A program made the position numbers and the translations under genes. From an uncultured bacterium (GTDB lineage Bacteria; Patescibacteriota; Minisyncoccia; Phycocordibacterales; GWA1-40-21): a stretch of DNA of 64,000 nucleotides. The DNA lies in the NCBI GenBank assembly GCA_963804975.1, contig CAWDSG010000002.1:53554-117553 (forward strand), written 5' to 3'. The notes under the pieces are model-generated. The model worked only from the letters and a program-made list of their open reading frames with translations. It was not told the origin of the DNA and did no database searches. Shown piece after piece: positions 5,151 to 40,868 of the stretch; position 1 is the stretch's first letter, and every line of letters begins with the position of its first letter.

Positions 5151-5492
5151 TCTATACGAAAATCGGTGATTTTACAATCTGTTTGACAAAAAATTTATAA
5201 TATGCTAAGCTTTTAATATCTCGCTTGAAGGAGGAGAATGGCAAAGGGAACTCGCAAAGTCTAGCCAGCTTGTAGCAGTTTTTTGTAGAATCTTATTCTG
5301 CTATAGAGATTTCCAAAAAATTTTTATAATTTTCTTTTTTGTTCTTTCTAGAAAAAATAATAATTGTGTAAAACTAGTCAGGGGTCAGGCTTTAAATCCA
5401 CCCTGCTCAATCGTTTGCCAACTTTCCTAAAAAGAAATTAAACACAAACATTGAACTCAGAAATAATTAGGTCTTATCTGGGGACCAGCTCG

Positions 5493-5882
5493 TCATATAT
5501 TTCCTTTACTGGAACTAATGGCGAGCTTATTTTTTATATAAAATCCGACTTTTTTCAGAATTTCATCAATATCTTTTTTTATTTCGGAATAAGAAATTGG
5601 TTTTTCGGTTTTTTTAGGAAAGAAAACGATTGTTTTTTTGAAATTTTCGTTCATTTTTTTTAAATTTTCCTCAATAGCCGCGCTTATTTTTCTTTTTATC
5701 CGGTGCCGGCCGACAGATGTTTTTTCTATTTTTTTTGACACAACGATGGCAAAACCCGGCATATTGGCATTTTTCTTTGAAACTTTTGCATGCAAATAAT
5801 TTTCGGATACTGCCATCCCATTTTTTATTGCATTTTCTATGTCAGCCCTTGCAGCCCTGAATTTTCTTGATAGCATCAACAC
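5493..5882 (-). CDS. rnpA: ribonuclease P protein component
   Basis: Basic protein with GRHRIKRKISAAIEE-type motif. Directly downstream of rpmH. Confidence 0.8.
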   Translation of the reverse strand: MLMLSRKFRAARADIENAIKNGMAVSENYLHAKVSKKNANMPGFAIVVSKKIEKTSVGRHRIKRKISAAIEENLKKMNENFKKTIVFFPKKTEKPISYSEIKKDIDEILKKVGFYIKNKLAISSSKGNI

Positions 5883-5936
5883 ATTATATCCGTAAGATTA
5901 TAAAAACAAAAATCCGCCAGAAGCGGATTTTTGTTT

Positions 5937-6086
5937 TTATCTTCTTTTTTTAGAAACAGAGAGTTTGGCTCTGCCTTTCTGCCTTCTCCTTTTTATAGTG
6001 TTTCTGCCGTATTTGCTCTTGCTTCGCGCGAGAAAACCATGAGTTTTCGCTCTTTTTCTTTTATTTGGCTGATACGTAAACGACAT
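5937..6086 (-). CDS. rpmH: 50S ribosomal protein L34 (below the size cut-off of the six-frame ORF list)
   Basis: Reverse-complement translation of 5937-6086 gives [49 protein letters not shown] (49 aa). This is the canonical L34 pattern, divergent from dnaA. Confidence 0.85.
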
Positions 6087-6297
6087 AAAGAAAGTATAAA
6101 CCAAAAAAGAAAAAATGTAAAGCTTGTTCAGATAAAATTTCAGGTATAATTACAAACCTCCGAACACTCGATGTTTTTTATAAAATTTGAATTTTTTTTA
6201 TTTTTGTTTTTTAATTTTACTAATCCACTTTTTATGAACACTTTGTGAACAAAAATAAATTTTAGAGAAATTCCATATCAACCTATAATTAAACCCT

Positions 6298-7629
6298 ATG
6301 ACAGATAATAAAATCCTTTGGAATAATGTCCTCGCCCAAATAGAACTTGGCATTTCTAAAGCAAATTTCAGCATGTGGTTTAAAGATACATATATCGTAA
6401 AACAGGAGGACGGCATGGTATATTTGGGAGTTCCGAATATTTTTATAAAGGACTGGCTGATGAATAAATACCATAAAGATATTATTAAAAATCTCAGGAC
6501 TTTCGGAGAAAATGTAAGAAATGTGGAATATTTGGTCTCGAAAGAAGAAAATAAAACCCATATCAAAGAATCAACAAATGTAAGCGAGCTTCCCCTCAAT
6601 GATTTTTACATAAATAAAGAAGATAATCTGAATCCTAAATATACTTTCAAAACATTTGTTGTCGGCCCGTTCAACGAACTTGCCTATGCGGCCTCGCAGG
6701 CGATTTTGAAAAGAACAGCTACTTACAATCCTCTTTTTATTTTTGGAAGCACCGGCCACGGTAAAACGCATTTGATTCAGGCGATAGGAAACCAATTTAA
6801 AGAAGACGATCCGAGCAAAAAGATTTTTTATATGACAAGCGAGCGGTTTGTAAACGATTATTTGAATTCCCTTAACAGCGGCGAGATCAATACTTTCAAA
6901 GAGAAATATAAAAAATATGATGTTTTGATTATTGACGATATACAATTTATTTCGTCAAAAACAAAAACTCAGGAAGAATTTTTTCATCTTTTCAACAGTT
7001 TTCACGACAGCGGAAAACAACTGATATTCTCGTCGGATAAGCATCCGAATTTCATAACCGATATAGAAGACCGCATCAAATCAAGATTCAATGCCGGCAT
7101 GATTCTTGAAATTCAGAAACCGGATTTTGAATCAAGGATCCAGATATTCAGGAAAAAAGCGTCTCTGATGAATCTGGCTCTTTCAAACGAAACGGTTGAA
7201 TTTTTGGCTTCATTTGTTGAAGGCAATATACGCGAACTTGAAGGTGTTTTGAATTTGATTCTATGCCAGACCCACTTAAAAAATAAGGAATTGAATATAA
7301 GTGAAATTAAAGATCTGCTTAAAAACACATCCAAACCGAAGAAAAATGTGTCCGCAAAAGATGTAATGAGGGTTGTTTCCGATTTTTACGGGATAGACGA
7401 ATCCAGTGTATCCGAAAAAGGGAGAAAAAAGGAGGTTATCAAGCCAAGGCAGGTAATTATGTATATTCTGAGGGAAGATTTTGATATTTCGTTCCCGTCA
7501 ATAGGCGATAAGGTGGGAAACAGGGACCATTCCACAGTTATCCACTCGTATGAAAAAATCAAAAATGATCTTAAAAACAATCCTGAGCTCGTCCAGGAAA
7601 TAGAGCATATCCGTTCAATGTTGAAATGA
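6298..7629 (+). CDS. dnaA: chromosomal replication initiator DnaA
   Basis: Walker A GSTGHGKTHLIQAIGN, Walker B VLIIDDIQF, and a C-terminal DNA-binding domain. Sits in the canonical rpmH / dnaA-dnaN context. Confidence 0.95.
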   Translation: MTDNKILWNNVLAQIELGISKANFSMWFKDTYIVKQEDGMVYLGVPNIFIKDWLMNKYHKDIIKNLRTFGENVRNVEYLVSKEENKTHIKESTNVSELPLNDFYINKEDNLNPKYTFKTFVVGPFNELAYAASQAILKRTATYNPLFIFGSTGHGKTHLIQAIGNQFKEDDPSKKIFYMTSERFVNDYLNSLNSGEINTFKEKYKKYDVLIIDDIQFISSKTKTQEEFFHLFNSFHDSGKQLIFSSDKHPNFITDIEDRIKSRFNAGMILEIQKPDFESRIQIFRKKASLMNLALSNETVEFLASFVEGNIRELEGVLNLILCQTHLKNKELNISEIKDLLKNTSKPKKNVSAKDVMRVVSDFYGIDESSVSEKGRKKEVIKPRQVIMYILREDFDISFPSIGDKVGNRDHSTVIHSYEKIKNDLKNNPELVQEIEHIRSMLK

Positions 7630-31627: not shown

Positions 31628-34315
31628 TTGTATCAGTATTATCAATTTAATCATACAAAATTCACATTTATGAAAAAAATTCTATTGGTTTCATCGGTGC
31701 TTGTTTTTTGCCTCTTTGCCGTTAACTCGGCTTCCGCCCAAGTTGTGGCGCAAAATACATCTTCAGGCGGCGTTGTCGTTGCCACGGTAAATATATATAA
31801 CGCAAAAATCGTATCGCAGGACGGCAGGAATTTTGCATTGTCTTTTGAACTTTCAAATGAATCCGGCGTCCAGCCGCAAGTGGAATATTCCGTCAGATTG
31901 ACAGAAAATTCATCGTCCGGAGAAACTTTGGTGGATGAAAAAGTTTATGATAAAACTATTTCTCTTGATCAGAAAACAACCATCAATCAAACCATAAATT
32001 ACAGCGTGCCGAATGCGCTTCCTGCGGGCACATATGGCATTTGGATTATGAGCAGGAATGAAAGCGGTTTGCCTCTTGCCATTGCCTATGTCGGAGACGT
32101 GAAAATTGCGGCGAGCGTGGCAGGCACCGTTGAAATAATTCCCGATTCCTGTTATCTGACTGCGGGAACAAGTACTCAAAAATATTCTTTGTCTCAAGGT
32201 ATTTTGATTTCAGATTCGGATAAAATAATTGAAACTTGCAAAATTGCGAGCAATTTATCAAAAGGCGCGGTTCTTACTCCGAAATTTGAAACAAGAAGCA
32301 ACAGTGTTTTTGGTACAGATGTGGCGCAGTCCGGCGGAGCAACGGGTACGATAGAAATTAAAAACGGCGCGAATGATATATCTCTTGCATTGCCGAAAGC
32401 AACGGCGCCGGGAAATTATGTTTCTATTTTATCGCTCGCCTCTTCCGTAGGACAAATAACTTCAAATGAAGTTACAGCCAATTACACCATCAAAGGTTTG
32501 AGCGGAACTATACAAAATGTCATTCTTGATAAAACTTTTTACAAAGCAGGCGATATGGCCAATCTCCAGATATTCAGGACATTATCGGGAATTGTTTCAA
32601 CGACAACGATAACCACTTCAATAACGGACGGTCAGGGCAACGCCTGTTCAAATTCCGCGGAAGTGCAAATACCGTCAAATATCTTGATAACGAATATGCA
32701 GATACCGATTGCCAAAGATTGCGCCAATCCAAAAGCGAATATCACTTTATCGGCAAACGGAACAATTCTTGATTCAAAAGATTTTCAAATTACAACTCCT
32801 GCAAATCTTCTGCCTAAACCTGCAATCAATGCAAATAATCTGATTATCATAATAATCATCGTTTTGATTTTACTGATGATTATTTTCAGAAAAAAGAAAC
32901 AGCCGGCAGTCAGCGCACTTATTTTTATTTTTCTGCTTGCATCCGCTCTGTTTGGTTTTTCAAAAAATGTTTCAGCAAATACCGTATCATTCGGCTTTTC
33001 TTCAAATGATCCATCCATAGGTTGTGGAAATTATTGCTATGTCAACATAGTGACAGGTTTGGATAAAAGCTCTTATACTCCAAGTGGAAACATGATTGCT
33101 TCAAATTTTTCCGCATCCAATATACTTGTAAATATTACCGTGCAAGGATATATTGATTCAGGTTCCCATTCCACAATAGCGTCACTTACCTATTTTTCAA
33201 GCGGAGGCCAAACAAGCGTGAAAAATTTTACAGCTCCCGCATCTGCCGGTTCGCATAATTTTAATGTATATAATTATTTTTGTCAGGTAGTTCCAATATT
33301 TGGAAGCTGCATTTCCGGCACCGGTGGCAGCAAAACTCAAGCGATTCCATTTACCGTTTCTGCTCCTCTGACAATCAGCATCTCTGCCAATCCTTCCATC
33401 GTCACTTCCGGCGGCCAGACAACTATTACTTATAGCGGTTCAAATACAAGCGCTTACACACTTTCCTCAAATCCTGATATGGTGGCATTATCAAAAACTG
33501 TAAAAGTTGCCAATACTGATTTAAATAATGTTGCTACGGTTTTACAATCGGCAAATAATTTGAATGGTAATCCTTTTAACTATACGGTGCCTGTCAACAT
33601 TTCTCAAACTACAACTTTCACTCTTTCAGCTACCGGGACGGATGGCGTGACAACTGCATCAACCAGCACGATTGTGAATGTAGCGGGCAAGAGCTGCGCC
33701 GATTGCGCTAATGGTACCGGTTTTCAGGCCCCGGCCAATGTCTATGCGACCACCACCTGCAGCAACATGCAACCGATCATAACGTGGACAAATCTTGACA
33801 GTAACGTTGAAGATTATATATACAGGGGAGCGACGTTGATAGCGACAATAACAGGAAATTCATATCAAGATAATGCGGTTGCATTATCAAACGGCAAGCA
33901 ATATTCATATACAATCCAAGAATATGACGCAGGCGCCGCCAGCACTTCTCCGATGTCTGCAGCCAGTTCATTTACTTATAGTTCTTGTCCTAAAGCGCAG
34001 CAGCCGATAACATCTTCTACTGATTGTTCAGCAAGCCAGGCAGGTTCCCCAATTATTTATGTGAATAAGGCAATGACTTGGACAATGGAAAATCTTGATC
34101 CAAAATTTATCGTGTCCAGCACCATTTGGAGCGGCACCGATTTGCCTTCCGCCGGCATAACCACAAACGGAACGTCATTGAGCAAAATTTACACAACAGT
34201 CGGTTCAAAGACGATAAACGCTACTACGACGGGCACTATAGATGGAAGTTCTACTTACACGGCGACTTGTTCCACAACAGTAAAATTGAAACAGGGGATT
34301 ATTCAGGAAATATAA
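31628..34315 (+). CDS. large predicted surface/cell-wall-associated protein with internal TM-Lys stop-transfer followed by a second signal-peptide-like segment
   Basis: N-terminal signal peptide and roughly 400 aa rich in S/T/N/G. At about aa 405-450 the segment IIIIIIVLILLMIIFRKKKQPAVSALIFIFLLASALFGFSKNVSANT occurs. A roughly 440-aa S/T-rich C-terminal region with several Cys follows. Confidence 0.5.
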   Translation: MYQYYQFNHTKFTFMKKILLVSSVLVFCLFAVNSASAQVVAQNTSSGGVVVATVNIYNAKIVSQDGRNFALSFELSNESGVQPQVEYSVRLTENSSSGETLVDEKVYDKTISLDQKTTINQTINYSVPNALPAGTYGIWIMSRNESGLPLAIAYVGDVKIAASVAGTVEIIPDSCYLTAGTSTQKYSLSQGILISDSDKIIETCKIASNLSKGAVLTPKFETRSNSVFGTDVAQSGGATGTIEIKNGANDISLALPKATAPGNYVSILSLASSVGQITSNEVTANYTIKGLSGTIQNVILDKTFYKAGDMANLQIFRTLSGIVSTTTITTSITDGQGNACSNSAEVQIPSNILITNMQIPIAKDCANPKANITLSANGTILDSKDFQITTPANLLPKPAINANNLIIIIIIVLILLMIIFRKKKQPAVSALIFIFLLASALFGFSKNVSANTVSFGFSSNDPSIGCGNYCYVNIVTGLDKSSYTPSGNMIASNFSASNILVNITVQGYIDSGSHSTIASLTYFSSGGQTSVKNFTAPASAGSHNFNVYNYFCQVVPIFGSCISGTGGSKTQAIPFTVSAPLTISISANPSIVTSGGQTTITYSGSNTSAYTLSSNPDMVALSKTVKVANTDLNNVATVLQSANNLNGNPFNYTVPVNISQTTTFTLSATGTDGVTTASTSTIVNVAGKSCADCANGTGFQAPANVYATTTCSNMQPIITWTNLDSNVEDYIYRGATLIATITGNSYQDNAVALSNGKQYSYTIQEYDAGAASTSPMSAASSFTYSSCPKAQQPITSSTDCSASQAGSPIIYVNKAMTWTMENLDPKFIVSSTIWSGTDLPSAGITTNGTSLSKIYTTVGSKTINATTTGTIDGSSTYTATCSTTVKLKQGIIQEI

Positions 34316-34452: not shown

Positions 34453-34920
34453 ATGAAACATTTATTGATGTTAACGGTTTTGTTGTTAACAAGTTCTTTG
34501 CTTGCGATTGTCGGATGCAGTAATCCGTCTCCGGCAGGGCCAGGTCCTTCGCCGACATTAACGCCGACGGTAACAGCAATCCCGACAAAAACGATTCGGT
34601 GTGATATTAACATCACTGCATCGTCTTCCTCGGATCCAGTAACGATTGATTATTTGGATGCGAGTGTTGTTGGGGGAGGAGTATCGCAGCAGATTATTCT
34701 TCCGGTAGGCATATCATCAAAATCGTTTACTTTCACGGCTGTTGTAGGTGGCGAATTTCAGATAAAAGTAAGATATAAGGCTGTTAGCGTACCATCTACT
34801 ATAACGATTGCAATTTATCAAAATACGATATTGATAGATAATCCTTCCGCAACCGATGGTTCATCAGCTGGACCAGTAACATTTACTTATGGACCGTTTG
34901 CAATTGCATCTTCACCTTAA
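34453..34920 (+). CDS. small lipoprotein (lipobox LAIVGC)
   Basis: Signal peptide plus lipobox, and a P/T-rich linker. Strong SD aaggagg. A terminator hairpin lies downstream (aagggttcg...cgaaccctt plus T-run). Confidence 0.5.
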   Translation: MKHLLMLTVLLLTSSLLAIVGCSNPSPAGPGPSPTLTPTVTAIPTKTIRCDINITASSSSDPVTIDYLDASVVGGGVSQQIILPVGISSKSFTFTAVVGGEFQIKVRYKAVSVPSTITIAIYQNTILIDNPSATDGSSAGPVTFTYGPFAIASSP

Positions 34921-35102
34921 AGAAAAATTTTGGTTTCAAAAAAGGGTTCGTTTGGCATTTGCTTATAGCATTGCCGGGCGAACCCTTATTTTTTAAATTT
35001 TTTATAAATTTGTCAATCCCAAGGTCTCACCTCAGAGTTTTTTAGATGAGAACATATAAAGATTTTCTTTAGGTTGGACCTAAAGAATTTAAAAAAATAG
35101 CC

Positions 35103-35140
35103 CTAGTGAGTTTATATAATTAATTATATAAACTCACTAG
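35103..35140. repeat. perfect 38-bp palindrome between convergent lipoprotein genes (bidirectional terminator or protein-binding site)
   Basis: ctagtgagtttatataatt / aattatataaactcactag. Confidence 0.6.
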
Positions 35141-35174
35141 AGCCGTAAACTAAAAATTATTACATGTGCAACTA

Positions 35175-35651
35175 CTATTTGGTAAGCGCCAACTGCCCAT
35201 TCGTAAATGGTCCTGAACAAGAATTATTGCCTTTGTATGTTCCATTAATTGTGGTGTTCGTTAAAGCAGCGGATCCTGAAAGATTTATTGTACAAGTTGC
35301 ATATATTGGTGATTGAATGCCGCCAACTGGCACAGCCATCGTAAAATTTAAAGTTGTTCCTGAAATTGTTCCTGAAACTGTACCATTGATGACAATACTG
35401 CCTCCACTGCCTGCTCTGGCTAAAAAAGTACCGCTTATACTGTCCCCTGATTGCACAATCTGCCAAGTGCATGGTCCTGGTACTCCCGCTCCTGACGAAT
35501 CCGCCACTGAACCAGACCATGTTCCGGTAAGATTCAACGCAAGCGTTGGCGTTGATGTCGAATTTTGCGGCGATGTTGAAGATTTACCGCACGAGATCAA
35601 AAACATTGAAACAAACACAGCAACTGCCAAAAACAACAATAACTTTTTCAT
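35175..35651 (-). CDS. small lipoprotein (lipobox LISCG)
   Basis: Signal peptide plus lipobox, S/T/G-rich. Divergent from the radical SAM gene. Confidence 0.5.
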   Translation of the reverse strand: MKKLLLFLAVAVFVSMFLISCGKSSTSPQNSTSTPTLALNLTGTWSGSVADSSGAGVPGPCTWQIVQSGDSISGTFLARAGSGGSIVINGTVSGTISGTTLNFTMAVPVGGIQSPIYATCTINLSGSAALTNTTINGTYKGNNSCSGPFTNGQLALTK

Positions 35652-35800: not shown

Positions 35801-35829
35801 TTGACTTTATATTATTTATTTTGTACAAT
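35801..35829 (+). promoter_or_regulatory. sigma70-like promoter upstream of the radical SAM gene
   Basis: TTGACT, a 17-bp spacer, then TACAAT. Sits about 40 bp upstream of SD aaagaaggtg and the ATG at 35871. Confidence 0.45.
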
Positions 35830-35870
35830 TACAATAAATTTAGTTCATTAAAAAAGAAAGAAGGTGCAGA

Positions 35871-37163
35871 ATGTATAAAACGCTTTCAGGTCCAATTGCT
35901 GTGCAGATTGAGATAACCGAATTGTGCAATAACACATGCATGCATTGTTATAACTTTTTCAGACACAATGGTTATGTTTGTAAAACCATGTCCGAAAAAG
36001 AAGTTTCAATAGTTGTGAATGAATTACGGAAGCATCAAGTTATCAGGGGAACTATTACCGGAGGAGAACCGCTTATGGTCCCCGATATTTTTTTGAAATT
36101 GGTCGATGGAATGGCATCGATGGGAATGAGTATATCGGTGAACACCAACCTCATTTTTTTTAATGAAGCCATCGGAACCGAGCTACTCAAAAAAGGAGTC
36201 AAGGCCATATTGACAAGTATCATCGCTGATACCCCGGAATTACATGATTTTATAACTCAAAACCCGGGAAGTTGGGAAGGAACCATAAACGGAATCAAGC
36301 TTGCTAAAAAGATGGGTTTTCGAGTTTCAGCAAACATGGTTCTAACAAAATGGAATATCCAAAGAGTTCGTGAAGTCGGTAATCTTGCCAGTTCGCTCGG
36401 TGTGAATACATTTGGAGCGACTCGCGCTTGTTCTCCGGGTCCTATTGCGGAAGATTTTCATAAAAATATTATTTCCGTTGAGGAACTCCGAGAGAGCATA
36501 AAAATCCTCTATGAGTTAAAGGACAAGTGGAATTATCAAGTCGATGTTTTTGAACACTATCCTTGGTGTGCAATTAGCGACCTTGAGAAATACTCTCATC
36601 TGGCGAGAAGGACCTGCACAGCCGGAATAACGAGCTGTACAATAGGTACGGATGGCCAACTAAGGCCTTGCGGTCATTCCTCAATGAAGTACGGAAATAT
36701 TTTTTCCGAAGGAATATCAACTCCTTGGTTAAAAATGGCGGATTTGAGGAAACGTTTATATTCCGAATCGTGCAGAAAGTGCAGCTTATTTATGAAATGC
36801 ACTGGTGGTTGTCCGACAGAGATTCAGAATTCCCGGAACAAAAAGGATCCACATTGTATAAGCAAAAAGGACGTGGTTTCCCTTCCGGTAAAAAAAGAGA
36901 ATATCGTTGTATCATCGGATCCAGATTGTATCTACACTCTGAACAGTAAAATAGTTTTGCGCTACGAGAAGTTTGGAGGTACAATAGGATCTAGAGACAG
37001 CGATAAATTGTTATTTGCTGATAAGGAACTTTTTGATATCCTCATGAGTTTGAGGAATCAAAAGTTTTCTATCAGACAAATTTCCATTGAGTTCTCCAAG
37101 GATCTAGATCAAATTCTTCCGATATTTTCTTCTCTATTCTCGAAAGGATTTCTGGTCCAGTAA
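35871..37163 (+). CDS. radical SAM / SPASM-domain peptide-modifying enzyme
   Basis: N-terminal CX3CX2C (ITELCNNTCMHCY) and the GGEPLM motif. The C-terminus is Cys-rich and SPASM-like (CTAGITSCTIG...RPCGHSS...CRKCSLFMKCTGGCPTE). Confidence 0.85.
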   Translation: MYKTLSGPIAVQIEITELCNNTCMHCYNFFRHNGYVCKTMSEKEVSIVVNELRKHQVIRGTITGGEPLMVPDIFLKLVDGMASMGMSISVNTNLIFFNEAIGTELLKKGVKAILTSIIADTPELHDFITQNPGSWEGTINGIKLAKKMGFRVSANMVLTKWNIQRVREVGNLASSLGVNTFGATRACSPGPIAEDFHKNIISVEELRESIKILYELKDKWNYQVDVFEHYPWCAISDLEKYSHLARRTCTAGITSCTIGTDGQLRPCGHSSMKYGNIFSEGISTPWLKMADLRKRLYSESCRKCSLFMKCTGGCPTEIQNSRNKKDPHCISKKDVVSLPVKKENIVVSSDPDCIYTLNSKIVLRYEKFGGTIGSRDSDKLLFADKELFDILMSLRNQKFSIRQISIEFSKDLDQILPIFSSLFSKGFLVQ

Positions 37164-37210
37164 ATTTTGATTTTTGATCCCAAAAAAGGAGGTGATGGGC
37201 ATGAAGTTCC

Positions 37211-37345
37211 TCGGATTGCAAGAAAAAAGCGAGACGAGTCAGGACGCTTCTGTTTTGAGCAATCCTGAAGAGTGCGACAGCGACTGCTACTATGACTGTA
37301 ACACGGAGTCCGATCATGCAGGAGCGAACGGATAAGTTTCTTCCG
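37211..37345 (+). CDS. 44-aa Cys/Asp/Tyr-rich peptide - candidate RiPP precursor (below the size cut-off of the six-frame ORF list)
   Basis: GGAGG lies 8 nt upstream of ATG 37211. Translation is MKFLGLQEKSETSQDASVLSNPEECDSDCYYDCNTESDHAGANG. Sits 48 nt after the rSAM stop and is followed by a strong terminator. Confidence 0.55.
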
Positions 37346-37371
37346 AAGCACTCAATAAGCGAGCGGCAACA

Positions 37372-37401
37372 ATATGTTGCCGCTTTTTTATAGATATAAT
37401 A
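37372..37401 (+). terminator. rho-independent terminator after the peptide gene
   Basis: Stem agcggcaac ... gttgccgct with loop aatat, then ttttttat. Confidence 0.6.
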
Positions 37402-37425
37402 AATTTATTTTGCTATAATTAATAT

Positions 37426-38130
37426 ATGGAAAAACCTTCTCAAGTAGTCAAATTTGTTATTGATAAAGATTTGGATATTAAAAACCATTTCATTGCTTTA
37501 GATGCATATAAAATAAACAAAGAACGTGGAATCTCGCAAATTAAAGAAGAAGGTTCAGAAAATCTTTTGAAACTAAACTCAAATAAAGAGATTCAAGCAG
37601 AAATCGAAAAAACCATAGAACCATATTATAGGCAACAAGAGAAACTTCTTTCCCTTGCTGATGATATAAATAAAGAATGGATAAAAATCGAAAAAGACGT
37701 TATCCATAAACTTGAAACAATCCATAAATTTCCTTTTTCATTTACCTCAATAAAGGGAGTTTTGTCCTCGGCAAATAGATTTGGGTACGATTCAAATGGT
37801 GGATGGTTTGCAACGAATATGCGACAGAATAAATATATTTGCATAGATGTTGCAACTCATGAGCTAATGCATTTTATGTTTCATAAATATTATGATCAGA
37901 TTTGTAAAGAAAAAGGTTTATCCAAAAATCAGATGTGGGATATAAAAGAATCTTTTACTGTGTTGTTAAATATTGAATTTAATCAGTTTAGATTTCAAAG
38001 TGATAATAGCAAAGGATCACCATTACATATGGCATTAAGAGAAATAATAAAAAAATCTTGGGAAAAAAATCATGACTTTGATAAAGCTTTGGAAGAAGCC
38101 ATCAAATATATCAAAAGTATTGATAAGTAA
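37426..38130 (+). CDS. HExxHxxxH-motif protein, putative zinc metallopeptidase (ImmA/IrrE/DUF955-like signature)
   Basis: ATHELMHFMFH motif in a 234-aa soluble protein. No other homology recognised by eye. Confidence 0.4.
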   Translation: MEKPSQVVKFVIDKDLDIKNHFIALDAYKINKERGISQIKEEGSENLLKLNSNKEIQAEIEKTIEPYYRQQEKLLSLADDINKEWIKIEKDVIHKLETIHKFPFSFTSIKGVLSSANRFGYDSNGGWFATNMRQNKYICIDVATHELMHFMFHKYYDQICKEKGLSKNQMWDIKESFTVLLNIEFNQFRFQSDNSKGSPLHMALREIIKKSWEKNHDFDKALEEAIKYIKSIDK

Positions 38131-38140
38131 AAAACCTGAA

Positions 38141-39892
38141 ATGCGCATAGATTCAAAACAACTGAAAGATTTTTTAATAGATTCCGGCCTTATTACCCGG
38201 AGCGAATATGACGATATTGAAAAACAGATTGAAAAGGGCGCTTCAAAAGACGCTATTGAAAAAGTCCTGGTCAGCGAGGGGAAAATCTCCGAGGATGATT
38301 TGCGCCGCGCGCAGGCGTATGTTTTCGGCATACCGTTTGTGGATTTGAAGGATCAGAAAATAGATTTTTCGGTCCTTTCCCTTATTCCGGAGCCGGTGGC
38401 GAGAAAAAATAACATTATCGCTTTCAAAAAAAATCCTGATTCCCTTGAAGTGGCGATGCTTGATACCAACGATCTTTCTTCCATTGAATTCATAAAAAAG
38501 AAAGTCGGTTTGAGGATTCTGCCGCGGCTTACCGATACCGAATCCATCAAAAGCGCAATCTTACAATACCAAAAAAGCTTGAAGGCCGAATTCGGCGACC
38601 TGATACAGAAAGATATCCTTGCCCTGAAAAATGCCGGCGAGCTCGGAGATCTTGGAGAAGGATCTTTAAAAAAAATAGCAGAAGACCTGCCGGTTGTGCG
38701 CATCGTGGAAACGCTCCTGAAACATGCTATTTTACAGAACGCATCCGATATTCACATAGAGTGCATGGAAAACGATTTGCTCATACGTTATCGCATAGAC
38801 GGCATTTTGCACGATGCTATGATTCTGCCTAAAATCGCGGCGACATCCATTACGGCGAGGATCAAAGTGCTTTCAAACCTGAAGCTTGACGAAAAACGCC
38901 TTCCGCAGGACGGGCGATTCAAGATAGAAATAAACGGCGAAAAAGTTTCTTTCAGGGTTTCAATCATTCCGACTTATTTCGGAGAAAAAACCGTCATGAG
39001 ATTGCTCCGGGAAAACGTCGGCAATTATTCTTTGGAATCAATGGGTTTCCACGGCGAGAATCTTGAAAGAATCCACGAGGCAATGAGGCGCGCAAACGGC
39101 ATGATTCTCACGACCGGCCCGACCGGCAGCGGAAAAACCACGACGCTTTACACGATTCTTGAATTGCTCAACACTCCCGATGTGAATATCGCGACCATTG
39201 AAGACCCGATTGAATATCAGGTATCTCGGATAAATCAGACGCAAGTGAAGCCCGATATCGGCTTTTCTTTTTCAAACGGACTTCGCGCTCTTGTGAGGCA
39301 GGATCCGGATATCATAATGGTCGGAGAAATCAGAGACAATGAAACCGCTTCGCTTGCCGTCAATGCCGCGCTCACGGGTCACTTGGTGCTTTCAACGCTT
39401 CACACGAATTCCGCTTCTGGCGCGGTTCCTCGGCTTATTGATATGAAAATAGAGCCATTTCTTTTGGTTTCCACAATTAATATCGTCATGGCGCAAAGAT
39501 TGGTCAGGAAACTTTGCAAAACCAAGAGCAAATATATTCTTTCAAAAATTGAACTTGCTTCGCTTGCAAAAATCGTAGACCTGGACCGCGTGCTCGCTGT
39601 GCTCAAATCGGAAAATATTGTCGGAAAGGATGACGATTGGCCAACGATATATTTTTACAAGGCAACCGAATCGGCGGAATCTAAAGACGGCTACAGCAGC
39701 AGAATCGGCATCCACGAAGTGATGAAAATGTCGCCAACGATACAGAATCTGGTCATGAAAGGCGCGACGTCGCAGGAAATAGAGAACCAATCCAAAAAAG
39801 AAGGCATGATTACTATGGTTGAAGACGGAATTTTCAAATGCGTTCAAGGTTTGACGACGATTGAAGAGGTCTTAAGAGTGGTAACGGAATAA
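38141..39892 (+). CDS. pilB: type IV pilus / type II secretion assembly ATPase (PilB/GspE family), copy 2
   Basis: GSPII_E_N-like N-terminus, Walker A ILTTGPTGSGKTTTLY, and IMVGEIRD. Heads a pilC-pilin operon. Confidence 0.85.
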   Translation: MRIDSKQLKDFLIDSGLITRSEYDDIEKQIEKGASKDAIEKVLVSEGKISEDDLRRAQAYVFGIPFVDLKDQKIDFSVLSLIPEPVARKNNIIAFKKNPDSLEVAMLDTNDLSSIEFIKKKVGLRILPRLTDTESIKSAILQYQKSLKAEFGDLIQKDILALKNAGELGDLGEGSLKKIAEDLPVVRIVETLLKHAILQNASDIHIECMENDLLIRYRIDGILHDAMILPKIAATSITARIKVLSNLKLDEKRLPQDGRFKIEINGEKVSFRVSIIPTYFGEKTVMRLLRENVGNYSLESMGFHGENLERIHEAMRRANGMILTTGPTGSGKTTTLYTILELLNTPDVNIATIEDPIEYQVSRINQTQVKPDIGFSFSNGLRALVRQDPDIIMVGEIRDNETASLAVNAALTGHLVLSTLHTNSASGAVPRLIDMKIEPFLLVSTINIVMAQRLVRKLCKTKSKYILSKIELASLAKIVDLDRVLAVLKSENIVGKDDDWPTIYFYKATESAESKDGYSSRIGIHEVMKMSPTIQNLVMKGATSQEIENQSKKEGMITMVEDGIFKCVQGLTTIEEVLRVVTE

Positions 39893-40385: not shown

Positions 40386-40868
40386 ATGAAAAAGACAAAT
40401 ATCTATATTGATGGCAACAATTTATATCGTTCAGCTAAAGAATTAGGTTTTGAGATTGATTATAAAAAGTTAAGAGGTTGGCTTCGGCAGAAATATAATC
40501 CAACTGCTGTTTATCTCTTTATCGGACTCGTGCCGGAAAGGGTGAAGTTTTACGAGCATCTGCAAAGCTGCGGTTATGTTTTGGTATTCAAACAGACCGT
40601 TTCCATCGGAGAAAAAGTGAAGGGAAATTGTGATGCTGAATTAGTATTAAAAACCGCGTCTGATTTTTATGAAAAATCTTTTTCTTCCTGCATTCTTATA
40701 ACAGGGGATGGTGATTTTGGTTGTCTAGTTGAATTTCTGCGGGAAAAGAAAGCGATTGAGCGTGTCATCGCACCAGATGAAAAGAAATGTTCAATTTTAC
40801 TAAAAAACAAAAACATAGAAATCACCTTTTTGAATAATTTGTATCATAAATTTTCAAGTAAGATCTAA
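40386..40868 (+). CDS. NYN-domain (LabA/DUF88-like, PIN-fold) protein
   Basis: IYIDGNNLY N-terminal motif and ITGDGDFGCLVEFL, characteristic of NYN-domain proteins. Confidence 0.65.
   Translation: MKKTNIYIDGNNLYRSAKELGFEIDYKKLRGWLRQKYNPTAVYLFIGLVPERVKFYEHLQSCGYVLVFKQTVSIGEKVKGNCDAELVLKTASDFYEKSFSSCILITGDGDFGCLVEFLREKKAIERVIAPDEKKCSILLKNKNIEITFLNNLYHKFSSKI

What the first reader, a model, noticed from the sequence alone, without database searches (positions are those of the whole stretch)
35801..38130. Putative RiPP biosynthetic locus: radical SAM/SPASM maturase + unannotated 44-aa Cys/Asp/Tyr-rich peptide + HExxHxxxH peptidase-like gene
The rSAM gene (CX3CX2C plus a Cys-rich SPASM tail) has its own sigma70-like promoter. 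48 nt after its stop there is an unannotated small gene (37211-37345) with a near-ideal SD (GGAGG, 8-nt spacing). Its translation MKFLGLQEKSETSQDASVLSNPEECDSDCYYDCNTESDHAGANG contains a polar leader-like N-terminal half and a C-terminal core, CDSDCYYDCNTESD, with three Cys interspersed with Asp/Tyr/Asn/Thr. These are the donor and acceptor residues used by sactipeptide/ranthipeptide-type thioether-forming rSAM enzymes. The peptide gene is followed immediately by a strong intrinsic terminator. Next is a gene with an HELMHFMFH zinc-peptidase signature that could remove the leader. Two small lipoprotein genes flank the locus and a perfect 38-bp palindrome lies nearby. Such loci are rarely described in reduced CPR-type genomes.
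Basis: partly seen in the sequence, partly recalled or inferred. Interest (0 to 1): 0.8.

Follow-up and report, generated by a model that had tools for sequence, protein, structure and literature searches.

The report
Radical-SAM modified-peptide cassette in CPR bacterium
This is a real, conserved three-gene set (a radical-SAM enzyme, a tiny cysteine/aspartate-rich peptide it most likely modifies, and a small zinc-protease-like protein) that recurs across ultra-small CPR bacteria, matches no curated family, and makes an unknown product.

Summary
The 44-aa gene is at 37201-37335, not 37211-37345, 37 nt after the rSAM stop. The two lipoprotein genes and the palindrome are unrelated neighbours. 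The third His of 'HExxHxxxH' is not conserved.

The rSAM (35871-37163) has CX3CX2C, seven invariant SPASM cysteines and a predicted C-terminal peptide-recognition (RRE-like) domain. It falls far below the cutoff of every named NCBIfam family.

In 80 related loci, mostly from CPR genomes, a small Cys/Asp-rich ORF follows the rSAM in 54 of 76 evaluable cases. By chance about 0.08 would be expected. It usually has a strong ribosome-binding site (22 of 26) and a terminator (23 of 26). Close relatives share a leader (MKFLGLQE-like) and an invariant core CxxDCxTxxDH.

Best reading: an uncharacterised RiPP-like system. The enzyme binds the leader and cross-links the Cys/acidic core, probably through thioethers, and the zincin trims the peptide. 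The chemistry, the product and its role are inferred, not shown. Novelty: a new variant of a known kind.

The parts
35801..35829 (+). Promoter-like site (TTGACT-17-TACAAT) upstream of the rSAM gene
   Evidence: 10 of 12 matches. This is a consensus match only. The region holds no more such sites than shuffled sequence does.
35871..37163 (+). Radical SAM/SPASM enzyme, 430 aa, the predicted peptide maturase
   Evidence: Pfam Radical_SAM, Fer4_12 and SPASM. About 60 full-length homologues, all from CPR-type sources. AF2 model pLDDT 90.6. The nearest solved structures are RiPP maturases. It is below the cutoff of every named NCBIfam family.
35925..35948 (+). CX3CX2C motif (C19, C23, C26), which binds the SAM-cleaving 4Fe-4S cluster
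   Evidence: Invariant in 27 of 27 aligned homologues. Coordinates.
36567..36854 (+). SPASM region with the auxiliary-cluster cysteines: C233, C249, C267, C301, C304, C310 and C314 are invariant; C329 is variable
   Evidence: The motifs CX12GX4C and CX2CX5CX3C are present.
36924..37160 (+). C-terminal RRE-like domain (beta-sheet followed by a three-helix winged helix), the predicted leader-peptide binding site
   Evidence: The AF2 model has strands 355-384 followed by helices 385-424. Invariant residues are R364, E366, F368 and G369. The domain profile hits winged-helix proteins, and residues 23-58 of SuiB (E 0.017), which I place in SuiB's N-terminal RRE from memory. There is no Pfam PqqD hit.
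37188..37192 (+). Shine-Dalgarno GGAGG, 8 nt before the peptide ATG
   Evidence: The same AAAGGAGGT element sits before the peptide gene in L083, L084 and L085, and a Shine-Dalgarno match is found in 22 of 26 loci.
37201..37335 (+). Precursor-like peptide gene, 44 aa: leader MKFLGLQEKSETSQ..., core CDSDCYYDCNTESDHAGANG
   Evidence: Called as a gene on an independent contig. Conserved position and type in 54 of 76 loci, against 0.076 expected. Subfamily alignment.
37285..37317 (+). Conserved core motif C29-x-x-D32-C33-x-T35-x-x-D38-H39, the likely site of modification
   Evidence: C29, D32, C33, D38 and H39 are invariant in the 10-sequence alignment A4; T35 is nearly so (Ser in one sequence). 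The 12 further database peptides, several of them the same as A4 members, show the same motif by eye.
37361..37391 (+). Intrinsic terminator ending the rSAM-peptide transcription unit
   Evidence: -24.7 kcal/mol, z -6.3. A hairpin plus T-run follows the peptide gene in 23 of 26 related loci. The element is conserved in L083.
37391..37419 (+). Promoter-like site with extended -10 (TGCTATAAT) for the HExxH gene; probably a leaderless transcript
   Evidence: The ATG at 37426 lies 7 nt after the -10 element and has no SD. The same arrangement occurs in L083. Inference only.
37426..38130 (+). HExxH protein, 234 aa, gluzincin-like fold, predicted cytoplasmic; candidate leader or processing peptidase

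Best explanation
This is a two-unit RiPP-type cassette.

Unit 1 is a bicistronic operon of rSAM and peptide that ends in an intrinsic terminator. The 44-aa product is a precursor. Its N-terminal leader (MKFLGLQE...) is bound as a beta-strand by the enzyme's C-terminal RRE-like domain. Its C-terminal Cys/Asp core (CxxDCxTxxDH) is delivered to the active site. There, reductive cleavage of SAM at the CX3CX2C cluster generates a 5'-deoxyadenosyl radical. This radical abstracts a hydrogen from a core residue, and the SPASM auxiliary clusters assist formation of intramolecular cross-links. The most likely links are thioethers from Cys sulfur to a carbon of Asp, Glu, Thr or Asn, as in ranthipeptides and sactipeptides.

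Unit 2 is the separately transcribed HExxH gene. It encodes a small cytoplasmic gluzincin-type metalloprotein that most likely removes the leader or trims the modified peptide.

Shown: the gene set, its conservation, the motifs and the predicted folds. Inferred: leader binding by the RRE-like domain, the nature of the cross-link, proteolysis by the HExxH protein, and the fate and role of the product.
For: - Enzyme: Radical_SAM, Fer4_12 and SPASM domains. CX3CX2C and seven auxiliary cysteines are invariant in 27 homologues.
- Nearest solved relatives by sequence and by fold are peptide maturases: SkfB, SuiB, CteB, PqqE, TigE and ChlB.
- C-terminal domain: beta-sheet plus three-helix topology at good confidence. 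Its profile hits winged-helix proteins, and residues 23-58 of SuiB, which I place in SuiB's RRE from memory.
- Peptide: 54 of 76 evaluable related loci have an ORF with at least 4 Cys in its tail directly downstream on the same strand. The background is 0.076 per 400 nt. Other loci carry one upstream or further away.
- Peptide cores are 25% Cys and 26% Asp.
- In the close subfamily the leader start and the CxxDCxTxxDH core are conserved while the linker varies.
- A Shine-Dalgarno match is present in 22 of 26 loci and a terminator in 23 of 26.
- HExxH gene: the window type lies near the rSAM in 41 loci, a second Peptidase_MA_2-like type in 28, and either type in 64 of 80.
- The two types align over HExxH and the downstream Glu (hhalign E 8e-5).
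- One type-2 member passes Pfam Peptidase_MA_2.
- Chemical precedent: PapB forms Cys-Asp and Cys-Glu thioethers (PMC9413430, PMC10739248).
Against: - No experiment exists, so no mass shift or cross-link has been shown.
- The rSAM is far below cutoff for PapB (59 against 340 bits), SkfB (60 against 300) and every other named maturase. No chemistry can be transferred by homology.
- The core lacks the CX3D repeat I recall for freyrasin (not checked here). It could equally be a metal-binding motif made of Cys, Asp and His.
- There is no Pfam PqqD hit for the C-terminal domain.
- The HExxH protein has no Pfam or NCBIfam match, and Foldseek finds nothing significant.
- Three close HExxH homologues (53-64% identity) have no rSAM or Cys-rich ORF nearby.
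- HExxH proteins in other RiPP clusters are Fe/alpha-ketoglutarate hydroxylases rather than peptidases (PMC12636437).
- No exporter or immunity gene is conserved in the cassette.
Confidence: 0.7

Rival explanations
1. The locus has the same rSAM-peptide pair, but the HExxH protein is not a peptidase. It is a non-hydrolytic tailoring enzyme, for example an Fe(II)/alpha-ketoglutarate-dependent HExxH hydroxylase acting on the many Asp residues of the core, or a metal-handling partner of the peptide.
For: - alpha-KG-HExxH enzymes hydroxylate Asp, His, Gln and Pro in RiPPs, are often fused or adjacent to rSAM enzymes, and have a zincin-like fold (PMC12636437, PMC13060819).
- The core is 26% Asp.
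- Arg205 is invariant and could bind a carboxylate cosubstrate. This is speculation.
Against: - No hit to TIGR04267 (I recall this as the NCBIfam model for the alpha-KG-HExxH domain; the paper names only IPR026337), nor to any other NCBIfam model, even at E up to 10 for ten family members.
- No sequence hit to 8s5f at E up to 10.
- An invariant Glu175 sits where gluzincins place the third zinc ligand, and it aligns with the Glu of the WLxEG-type motif of the type-2 proteins.
- A type-2 member passes Peptidase_MA_2.
- From general knowledge, CPR bacteria are mostly anaerobic fermenters, so an O2- and alpha-KG-dependent step is awkward there.
Confidence: 0.12
2. The rSAM modifies the peptide by chemistry other than thioether formation. 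Candidates are C-C or C-O cross-links involving Tyr, His or Thr; epimerisation; or oxidation of Cys. Alternatively, the pathway converts the peptide into a small redox or metal-binding cofactor, following the logic of PQQ and mycofactocin.
For: - The best NCBIfam scores include MftC, PqqE, ScmE, GeoRSP and ACGX maturases as well as thioether formers, all at similar sub-threshold levels.
- SuiB (a C-C cross-linker) and PqqE match as well as SkfB does.
- The trio of peptide, rSAM/SPASM-with-RRE and peptidase mirrors the PQQ and mycofactocin pathways (established knowledge).
- No exporter is conserved.
- The invariant His39 and Thr35 need an explanation.
Against: - Cys is the dominant and most conserved core residue across all subfamilies, at 25%. 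From my knowledge of characterised systems, Cys-rich cores with SPASM enzymes have so far mostly yielded thioethers.
- The cores differ greatly between subfamilies. This is untypical of a universal cofactor.
- The peptide lacks the C-terminal Val-Tyr of MftA and the Glu-X3-Tyr motif of PqqA (recalled from memory; the absence itself is seen in the sequence).
Confidence: 0.15
3. This is not a RiPP. The small ORF is a metallothionein-like or Fe-S-scaffold peptide, or a chance ORF, that merely sits beside an rSAM with a different substrate.
For: - The Cys-x-Cys and Cys-x-x-Cys spacings and the Cys/Asp/His content resemble metal-binding peptides.
- No modification has been shown.
Against: - A chance ORF is excluded by the conserved position, strand, ribosome-binding site and terminator, and by leader and core conservation across dozens of diverged loci.
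- The strict pairing with an rSAM that carries a peptide-recognition-type domain, together with the conserved leader, is the hallmark of an enzyme-substrate pair.
- There is no sulfatase or other candidate protein substrate in the conserved neighbourhood.
Confidence: 0.03

Closest known systems
Ranthipeptides: freyrasin PapA/PapB and SCIFF CteA/CteB
   Same: An rSAM/SPASM enzyme is encoded beside a short, acidic, Cys-rich precursor with leader and core. PapB links Cys to Asp or Glu side chains (PMC9413430, PMC10739248), the residues that dominate this core. CteB is among the structural matches.
   Different: The rSAM scores 59 bits against the PapB model, whose cutoff is 340, and no SCIFF models are hit. 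The recognition domain is C-terminal, not N-terminal. The core motif is CxxDCxTxxDH rather than repeated CX3D (my recollection of freyrasin). A small gluzincin-like partner is conserved. The host range is CPR and DPANN.
Sactipeptide synthases (SkfB, AlbA and related enzymes)
   Same: SkfB is the best solved-structure match by sequence (E 1e-24) and by fold (E 2e-17). These enzymes form thioethers from Cys.
   Different: The NCBIfam SkfB model scores 60 bits against a cutoff of 300. Identity to SkfB is about 21%. The precursor type is different.
PQQ and mycofactocin pathways (PqqA/D/E/F; MftA/B/C/E)
   Same: They share the logic of a small peptide, an rSAM/SPASM enzyme, an RRE and a peptidase, with no dedicated exporter. 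MftC and PqqE give sub-threshold matches.
   Different: Scores are far below cutoff (84 against 265 bits, and 55 against 381). Here the RRE is fused C-terminally. The peptide has no Val-Tyr or Glu/Tyr motif (motifs recalled from memory). The cores vary between lineages.
Zinc leader peptidases of clan MA used in RiPP maturation, such as the M1-family AplP/EryP of class III lanthipeptides
   Different: This protein has 234 aa and a single domain, against about 850 aa. I saw no GxMEN exopeptidase motif in the sequence. It matches no Pfam or NCBIfam model. Activity is untested.
alpha-KG-dependent HExxH hydroxylases (ChlH, BpmH, PflC, PesO; IPR026337)
   Same: They are HExxH proteins with a zincin-like fold, encoded beside or fused to rSAM RiPP maturases, and some hydroxylate Asp (PMC12636437, PMC13060819).

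Membership tests
Radical SAM/SPASM peptide maturases (general class) | CX3CX2C cluster motif in a radical SAM core | tested here: met
   C19, C23 and C26 are invariant. Pfam Radical_SAM scores 60 bits against a cutoff of 29.5.
Radical SAM/SPASM peptide maturases (general class) | SPASM auxiliary-cluster cysteine motif (CX9-15GX4C ... CX2CX5CX3C) | tested here: met
   The motifs C249-X12-G262-X4-C267 and C301-X2-C304-X5-C310-X3-C314 are present, with seven invariant Cys. The window protein scores 21.0 bits on Pfam SPASM, just under the 21.5 cutoff. 26 of 27 family members match at E up to 1.
Radical SAM/SPASM peptide maturases (general class) | RiPP recognition element (PqqD-like winged helix with beta-sheet) | tested here: inconclusive
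   The AF2 topology of four strands plus three helices at residues 355-424 fits. The profile hits winged-helix proteins, and residues 23-58 of SuiB at E 0.017, a region I take from memory to be SuiB's RRE. There is no Pfam PqqD hit and no fold search of the isolated domain was possible.
Radical SAM/SPASM peptide maturases (general class) | Adjacent, co-conserved short precursor gene with leader and core | tested here: met
Radical SAM/SPASM peptide maturases (general class) | Demonstrated modification of the peptide | not testable with these tools
   This needs co-expression or in vitro reconstitution with MS.
Ranthipeptide maturases (PapB family NF047865; SCIFF maturase) | Score above the curated family cutoff | tested here: not met
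   PapB model: 59.4 bits against a cutoff of 340. No model named as a SCIFF maturase appears among the 25 best of the 83 NCBIfam families that matched.
Ranthipeptide maturases (PapB family NF047865; SCIFF maturase) | Precursor of the freyrasin (repeated CX3D) or SCIFF type | tested here: not met
   No NCBIfam model hits the peptide or ten relatives of it. The core is CxxDCxTxxDH. The CX3D repeat is recalled from memory.
Ranthipeptide maturases (PapB family NF047865; SCIFF maturase) | Non-alpha-carbon thioether cross-links in the product | not testable with these tools
   This needs MS/MS and NMR.
Anaerobic sulfatase-maturating enzymes | Family-level sequence match and a sulfatase substrate with a C/S-x-P-x-R motif nearby | tested here: not met
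   anSME is not among the 25 best NCBIfam matches. In the PDB search only the SPASM part matches, at E 1e-7. There is no sulfatase in the conserved neighbourhood, and the peptide has no CxPxR.
Mycofactocin and PQQ systems | MftC or PqqE equivalog score, and an MftA or PqqA type peptide | tested here: not met
   MftC scores 84 bits against 265 and PqqE 55 against 381. The peptide has no C-terminal Val-Tyr and no E-X3-Y (motifs recalled from memory).
Clan MA(E) gluzincin metallopeptidases | HExxH on a helix plus a Glu ligand on the following helix | tested here: met
   H145, E146, H149 and E175 are invariant in 35 sequences. E175 aligns with the Glu of the WLxEG-like motif of the type-2 family.
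Clan MA(E) gluzincin metallopeptidases | Zincin fold | tested here: met
Clan MA(E) gluzincin metallopeptidases | Match to a curated peptidase family model | tested here: not met
   The window protein has no Pfam or NCBIfam match. Only the type-2 analogue L020:5326-6096 passes Peptidase_MA_2, at 32.8 bits against 32.4.
Clan MA(E) gluzincin metallopeptidases | Zn-dependent peptide-bond hydrolysis | not testable with these tools
   This needs an enzyme assay.
alpha-KG-dependent HExxH hydroxylases (IPR026337; I recall the NCBIfam equivalent as TIGR04267) | Match to the family model or to ChlH | tested here: not met

The most novel reading that the evidence does not exclude
The cassette may not make an exported antibiotic. 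It may instead make an intracellular, peptide-derived metal-binding or redox-active molecule that ultra-small symbionts (CPR bacteria and DPANN archaea) rely on. On this reading the Cys/Asp/His core becomes a constrained chelator or cofactor. The small HExxH protein would be a new non-canonical zincin, either a processing enzyme with unusual chemistry or a metal-transfer partner. The rSAM with its C-terminal RRE would carry out a cross-link type not yet described.
Probability: 0.15. Interest if true: 0.8.

Novelty: new variant of a known kind. Interest (0 to 1): 0.55.

Why it matters
CPR bacteria have tiny genomes and are thought to depend on hosts. [quoted passage not shown]

This cassette is compact, with no conserved exporter. 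I found it in about 60 species-level CPR genomes among the 80 best loci, out of 224 candidate hits in the scan. It also occurs in a few genomes labelled as DPANN archaea or other bacteria.

No curated model covers the enzyme subfamily, the peptides or the HExxH partner. This gives a defined and easily synthesised three-gene target for finding out what chemistry these organisms invest in. It also offers a new rSAM/SPASM architecture with the RRE at the C-terminus, and two interchangeable mini-zincin families whose role in peptide maturation is untested.

If the cross-links are Cys-Asp or Cys-Glu thioethers, the family would greatly widen the ranthipeptide-like sequence space available for peptide engineering.

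Tried and rejected
- The metagenome scan with the single rSAM protein returned only one irrelevant TARA locus, because the patterns were too specific.
- The afdb50 fold library was unavailable.
- The Morishita 2024 Nat Chem paper on ChlH is not held, so the metal ligands of alpha-KG-HExxH enzymes could not be compared residue by residue.
- Pfam PqqD does not detect the C-terminal domain.
- Literature searches for this family in CPR found nothing specific.
- PADLOC gives only generic rSAM-core similarity to viperins over residues 11-164. I rejected a viperin or defence reading because the protein has a SPASM domain and a peptide partner.
- Rfam finds nothing in the window.
- I considered and rejected the lipoprotein genes, the palindrome and the pilus genes as parts of the system, because none is conserved beside rSAM homologues.
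- I rejected the longer 53-aa TTG-start version of the peptide, because the SD lies inside it and the homologues start at MKFLGL.
Full report
**What is in the sequence.** The region holds three forward-strand genes.
- A 430-aa radical SAM protein at 35871-37163.
- A 44-aa ORF at 37201-37335, MKFLGLQEKSETSQDASVLSNPEECDSDCYYDCNTESDHAGANG.
- A 234-aa ORF at 37426-38130 containing HELMHFMFH.

GGAGG lies 8 nt before the peptide ATG. A hairpin plus T-run at 37361-37391 folds at -24.7 kcal/mol, z -6.3. A TTGACT-17-TACAAT site precedes the rSAM, but such sites are as frequent in shuffled sequence. The window is 39% G+C.

The exact rSAM protein is on record from NCBI on a 606-kb contig. The 44-aa peptide exists only in an independent Logan gene call.

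**Features that are not part of the system.** Both lipobox ORFs, 34453-34920 (+) and 35175-35651 (-), lie upstream. Neither has a homologue next to rSAM relatives. The 22+22-nt palindrome at 35100-35143 is followed by a U-run on the minus strand and folds with z -10. It is the terminator of the minus-strand lipoprotein gene. The downstream genes encode type IV pilus parts (PilB, PilC, a pilin) and a NYN-domain protein. Upstream lie trigger factor, NusA and PolA. None of these is conserved with the cassette.

**The enzyme.**
- Pfam finds Radical_SAM, Fer4_12 and, just under threshold, SPASM.
- The best NCBIfam matches are NirJ2, AhbD, ScmE, GeoRSP, ACGX, MftC, WgkB, DynA, SkfB, PapB and PqqE, at 50-108 bits. 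All are far below their cutoffs of 265-650 bits, so the protein belongs to no named family.
- About 60 full-length homologues exist, and where a source names them they are from CPR (Paceibacterota, Parcubacteria, WWE3).
- In an alignment of 27, the invariant residues are C19/C23/C26, seven further cysteines (C233, C249, C267, C301, C304, C310, C314) and an LRxExFGG motif near the C-terminus.
- The AF2 model (pLDDT 90.6) shows a four-strand sheet followed by three helices after the SPASM region, at residues 355-424.
- A profile of that domain hits winged-helix proteins and residues 23-58 of SuiB (E 0.017). I place that stretch in SuiB's N-terminal RRE from memory. Pfam PqqD is not hit.
- Because CX3CX2C starts at residue 19, there is no N-terminal RRE. 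The recognition-type domain is C-terminal.
- The nearest solved structures are peptide maturases: SkfB, SuiB, CteB, PqqE, TigE and ChlB, along with anSME.

**The peptide is real and conserved.**
- A scan of one genome per species returned 224 relatives. I examined the best 80 loci, of which about 60 are from CPR. A few are labelled DPANN archaea, Lachnospiraceae, Omnitrophica and others.
- In 54 of 76 evaluable loci, a same-strand ORF with at least 4 Cys in its last 30 residues follows the rSAM within 350 nt. The background rate is 0.076 per 400 nt.
- Most remaining loci carry such an ORF upstream, further away or with fewer Cys.
- The cores are 25% Cys and 26% Asp, and the residue after Cys is Asp in about half of cases.
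- A leader motif recurs by eye: MKFLGLQE-like in the close subfamily and GFETLLD-like in others.
- The close subfamily has 10 sequences in alignment A4, and a database search found further peptides of the same type, none with a name beyond 'hypothetical protein'. It shares an invariant C-x-x-D-C-x-T-x-x-D-H.
- Against the 84%-identical locus L083, the leader start and the core are conserved and the linker diverges. The SD, the terminator and the next promoter-like element are also conserved.
- A Shine-Dalgarno match precedes the peptide in 22 of 26 loci, and a hairpin plus T-run follows it in 23 of 26.
- No NCBIfam or Pfam model covers these peptides.

**The HExxH gene.**
- It has no Pfam or NCBIfam match and no named homologue among 97.
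- The family has 845 representatives at 50% identity with E up to 1e-3. The 150 best listed are 103-289 aa, mostly about 210-240 aa.
- The invariant residues are H145, E146, H149, E175, R205, W85, E97 and Y121.
- The AF2 model is confident, at pLDDT 95.
- Homologues lie within 4 kb of the rSAM in 41 of the 80 loci.
- A second small HExxH family lies there in 28 loci. One of its members passes Pfam Peptidase_MA_2.
- Together the two families cover 64 of 80 loci. They align over HExxH and the downstream Glu (hhalign E 8e-5).
- Two alternative mini-zincins occupying the same neighbourhood argues for a functional link.
- The link is not exclusive. Three close homologues (53-64% identical) have neither an rSAM nor a Cys-rich ORF nearby.
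- No other gene family, and no transporter, is shared across the loci.

**Mechanism.** The best-supported reading is a RiPP-type pathway.
- The rSAM and the peptide are co-transcribed and the transcript terminates after the peptide.
- The leader is bound by the C-terminal RRE-like domain.
- The SAM-derived radical abstracts a hydrogen in the Cys/acidic core.
- The auxiliary clusters support cross-linking.
- The separately transcribed zincin then trims the product.

Thioether formation is the leading candidate because Cys dominates every core. PapB provides precedent for Cys-Asp and Cys-Glu links (PMC9413430, PMC10739248). This cannot be transferred by homology, because every membership test against named maturases failed.

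Three rivals remain.
- The rSAM may carry out different chemistry, or the pathway may have a cofactor-like outcome in the manner of PQQ or mycofactocin.
- The peptide may be an unmodified metal-binding peptide. This is unlikely given the leader, the RRE-like domain and the strict pairing.

**Comparison and novelty.** The system works like a ranthipeptide or sactipeptide cassette but is not a member of those families by any tested criterion. It differs in four ways:
- the domain order, with the RRE at the C-terminus;
- the core motif;
- the conserved mini-zincin partner;
- the distribution in CPR and DPANN genomes.

My literature searches found no description of it. [quoted passage not shown] Uncharacterised rSAM/SPASM-peptide pairs are common in genome mining, so this is a new variant of a known kind rather than a new category.

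**Verdict.** The chemistry and the biological role remain open. Interest is 0.55.

Noticed in passing
window 37391-37428: The HExxH gene has an extended -10 element (TGCTATAAT, ending at 37419) only 7 nt before its ATG, and no Shine-Dalgarno. This suggests a leaderless mRNA. The same arrangement is seen in the 84%-identical locus L083.
   Followed up: partly
window 38072-38143: The PilB-like ORF as listed starts at 38072 and overlaps the end of the HExxH gene by 59 nt. An in-frame ATG at 38141 (MRIDSKQ...), just after the HExxH stop, is a likelier start.
   Followed up: no
window 35099-35144: The near-perfect palindrome is a hairpin followed by U7 on the minus strand (z -10). It is the intrinsic terminator of the lipoprotein gene 35175-35651 (-), and possibly acts in both directions.
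   Followed up: yes
L084 1437-9280: A JGI contig whose rSAM is 70% identical carries two tandem rSAM / small Cys-rich peptide / HExxH cassettes. It also has a split M16 peptidase, a 54-aa Cys-rich ORF, a third rSAM/SPASM gene and a methyltransferase. Together they form a small island of peptide-modification genes.
   Followed up: partly
L012, L015, L020, L036 (about 5326-6360): In the Levybacteria-type loci no Cys/Asp peptide follows the rSAM. A Peptidase_MA_2-like gene comes first, followed by an ORF of about 90 aa ending in Pro/Cys repeats (CVDRPPPPCVGRPPPPCYG). This is a different core type for the same enzyme family.
   Followed up: partly
L086, L087, L088: Close homologues of the HExxH protein (53-64% identity) stand alone among unrelated genes, with no rSAM or Cys-rich ORF within 4 kb. 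The family is therefore wider than the cassette.
   Followed up: partly
window 31628-34315: An 895-aa ORF has an N-terminal hydrophobic segment, a mid-protein hydrophobic stretch and no Pfam match. It is probably a large surface protein. Its only hit among the related loci is a 27%-identical ORF in L067.
   Followed up: no
window 40386-40868: A NYN-domain (predicted RNase) gene and a 131-aa membrane-like ORF sit between the pilB-like and pilC-like genes.
   Followed up: no
L019 5327-5458, L024 5330-5461: In two loci, one of them from Yonathbacteria, the peptide core is ACYCHCACACH rather than Cys/Asp-rich. It gives a weak match (E 0.012) to the FibroRumin rSAM-target peptide model.
   Followed up: no
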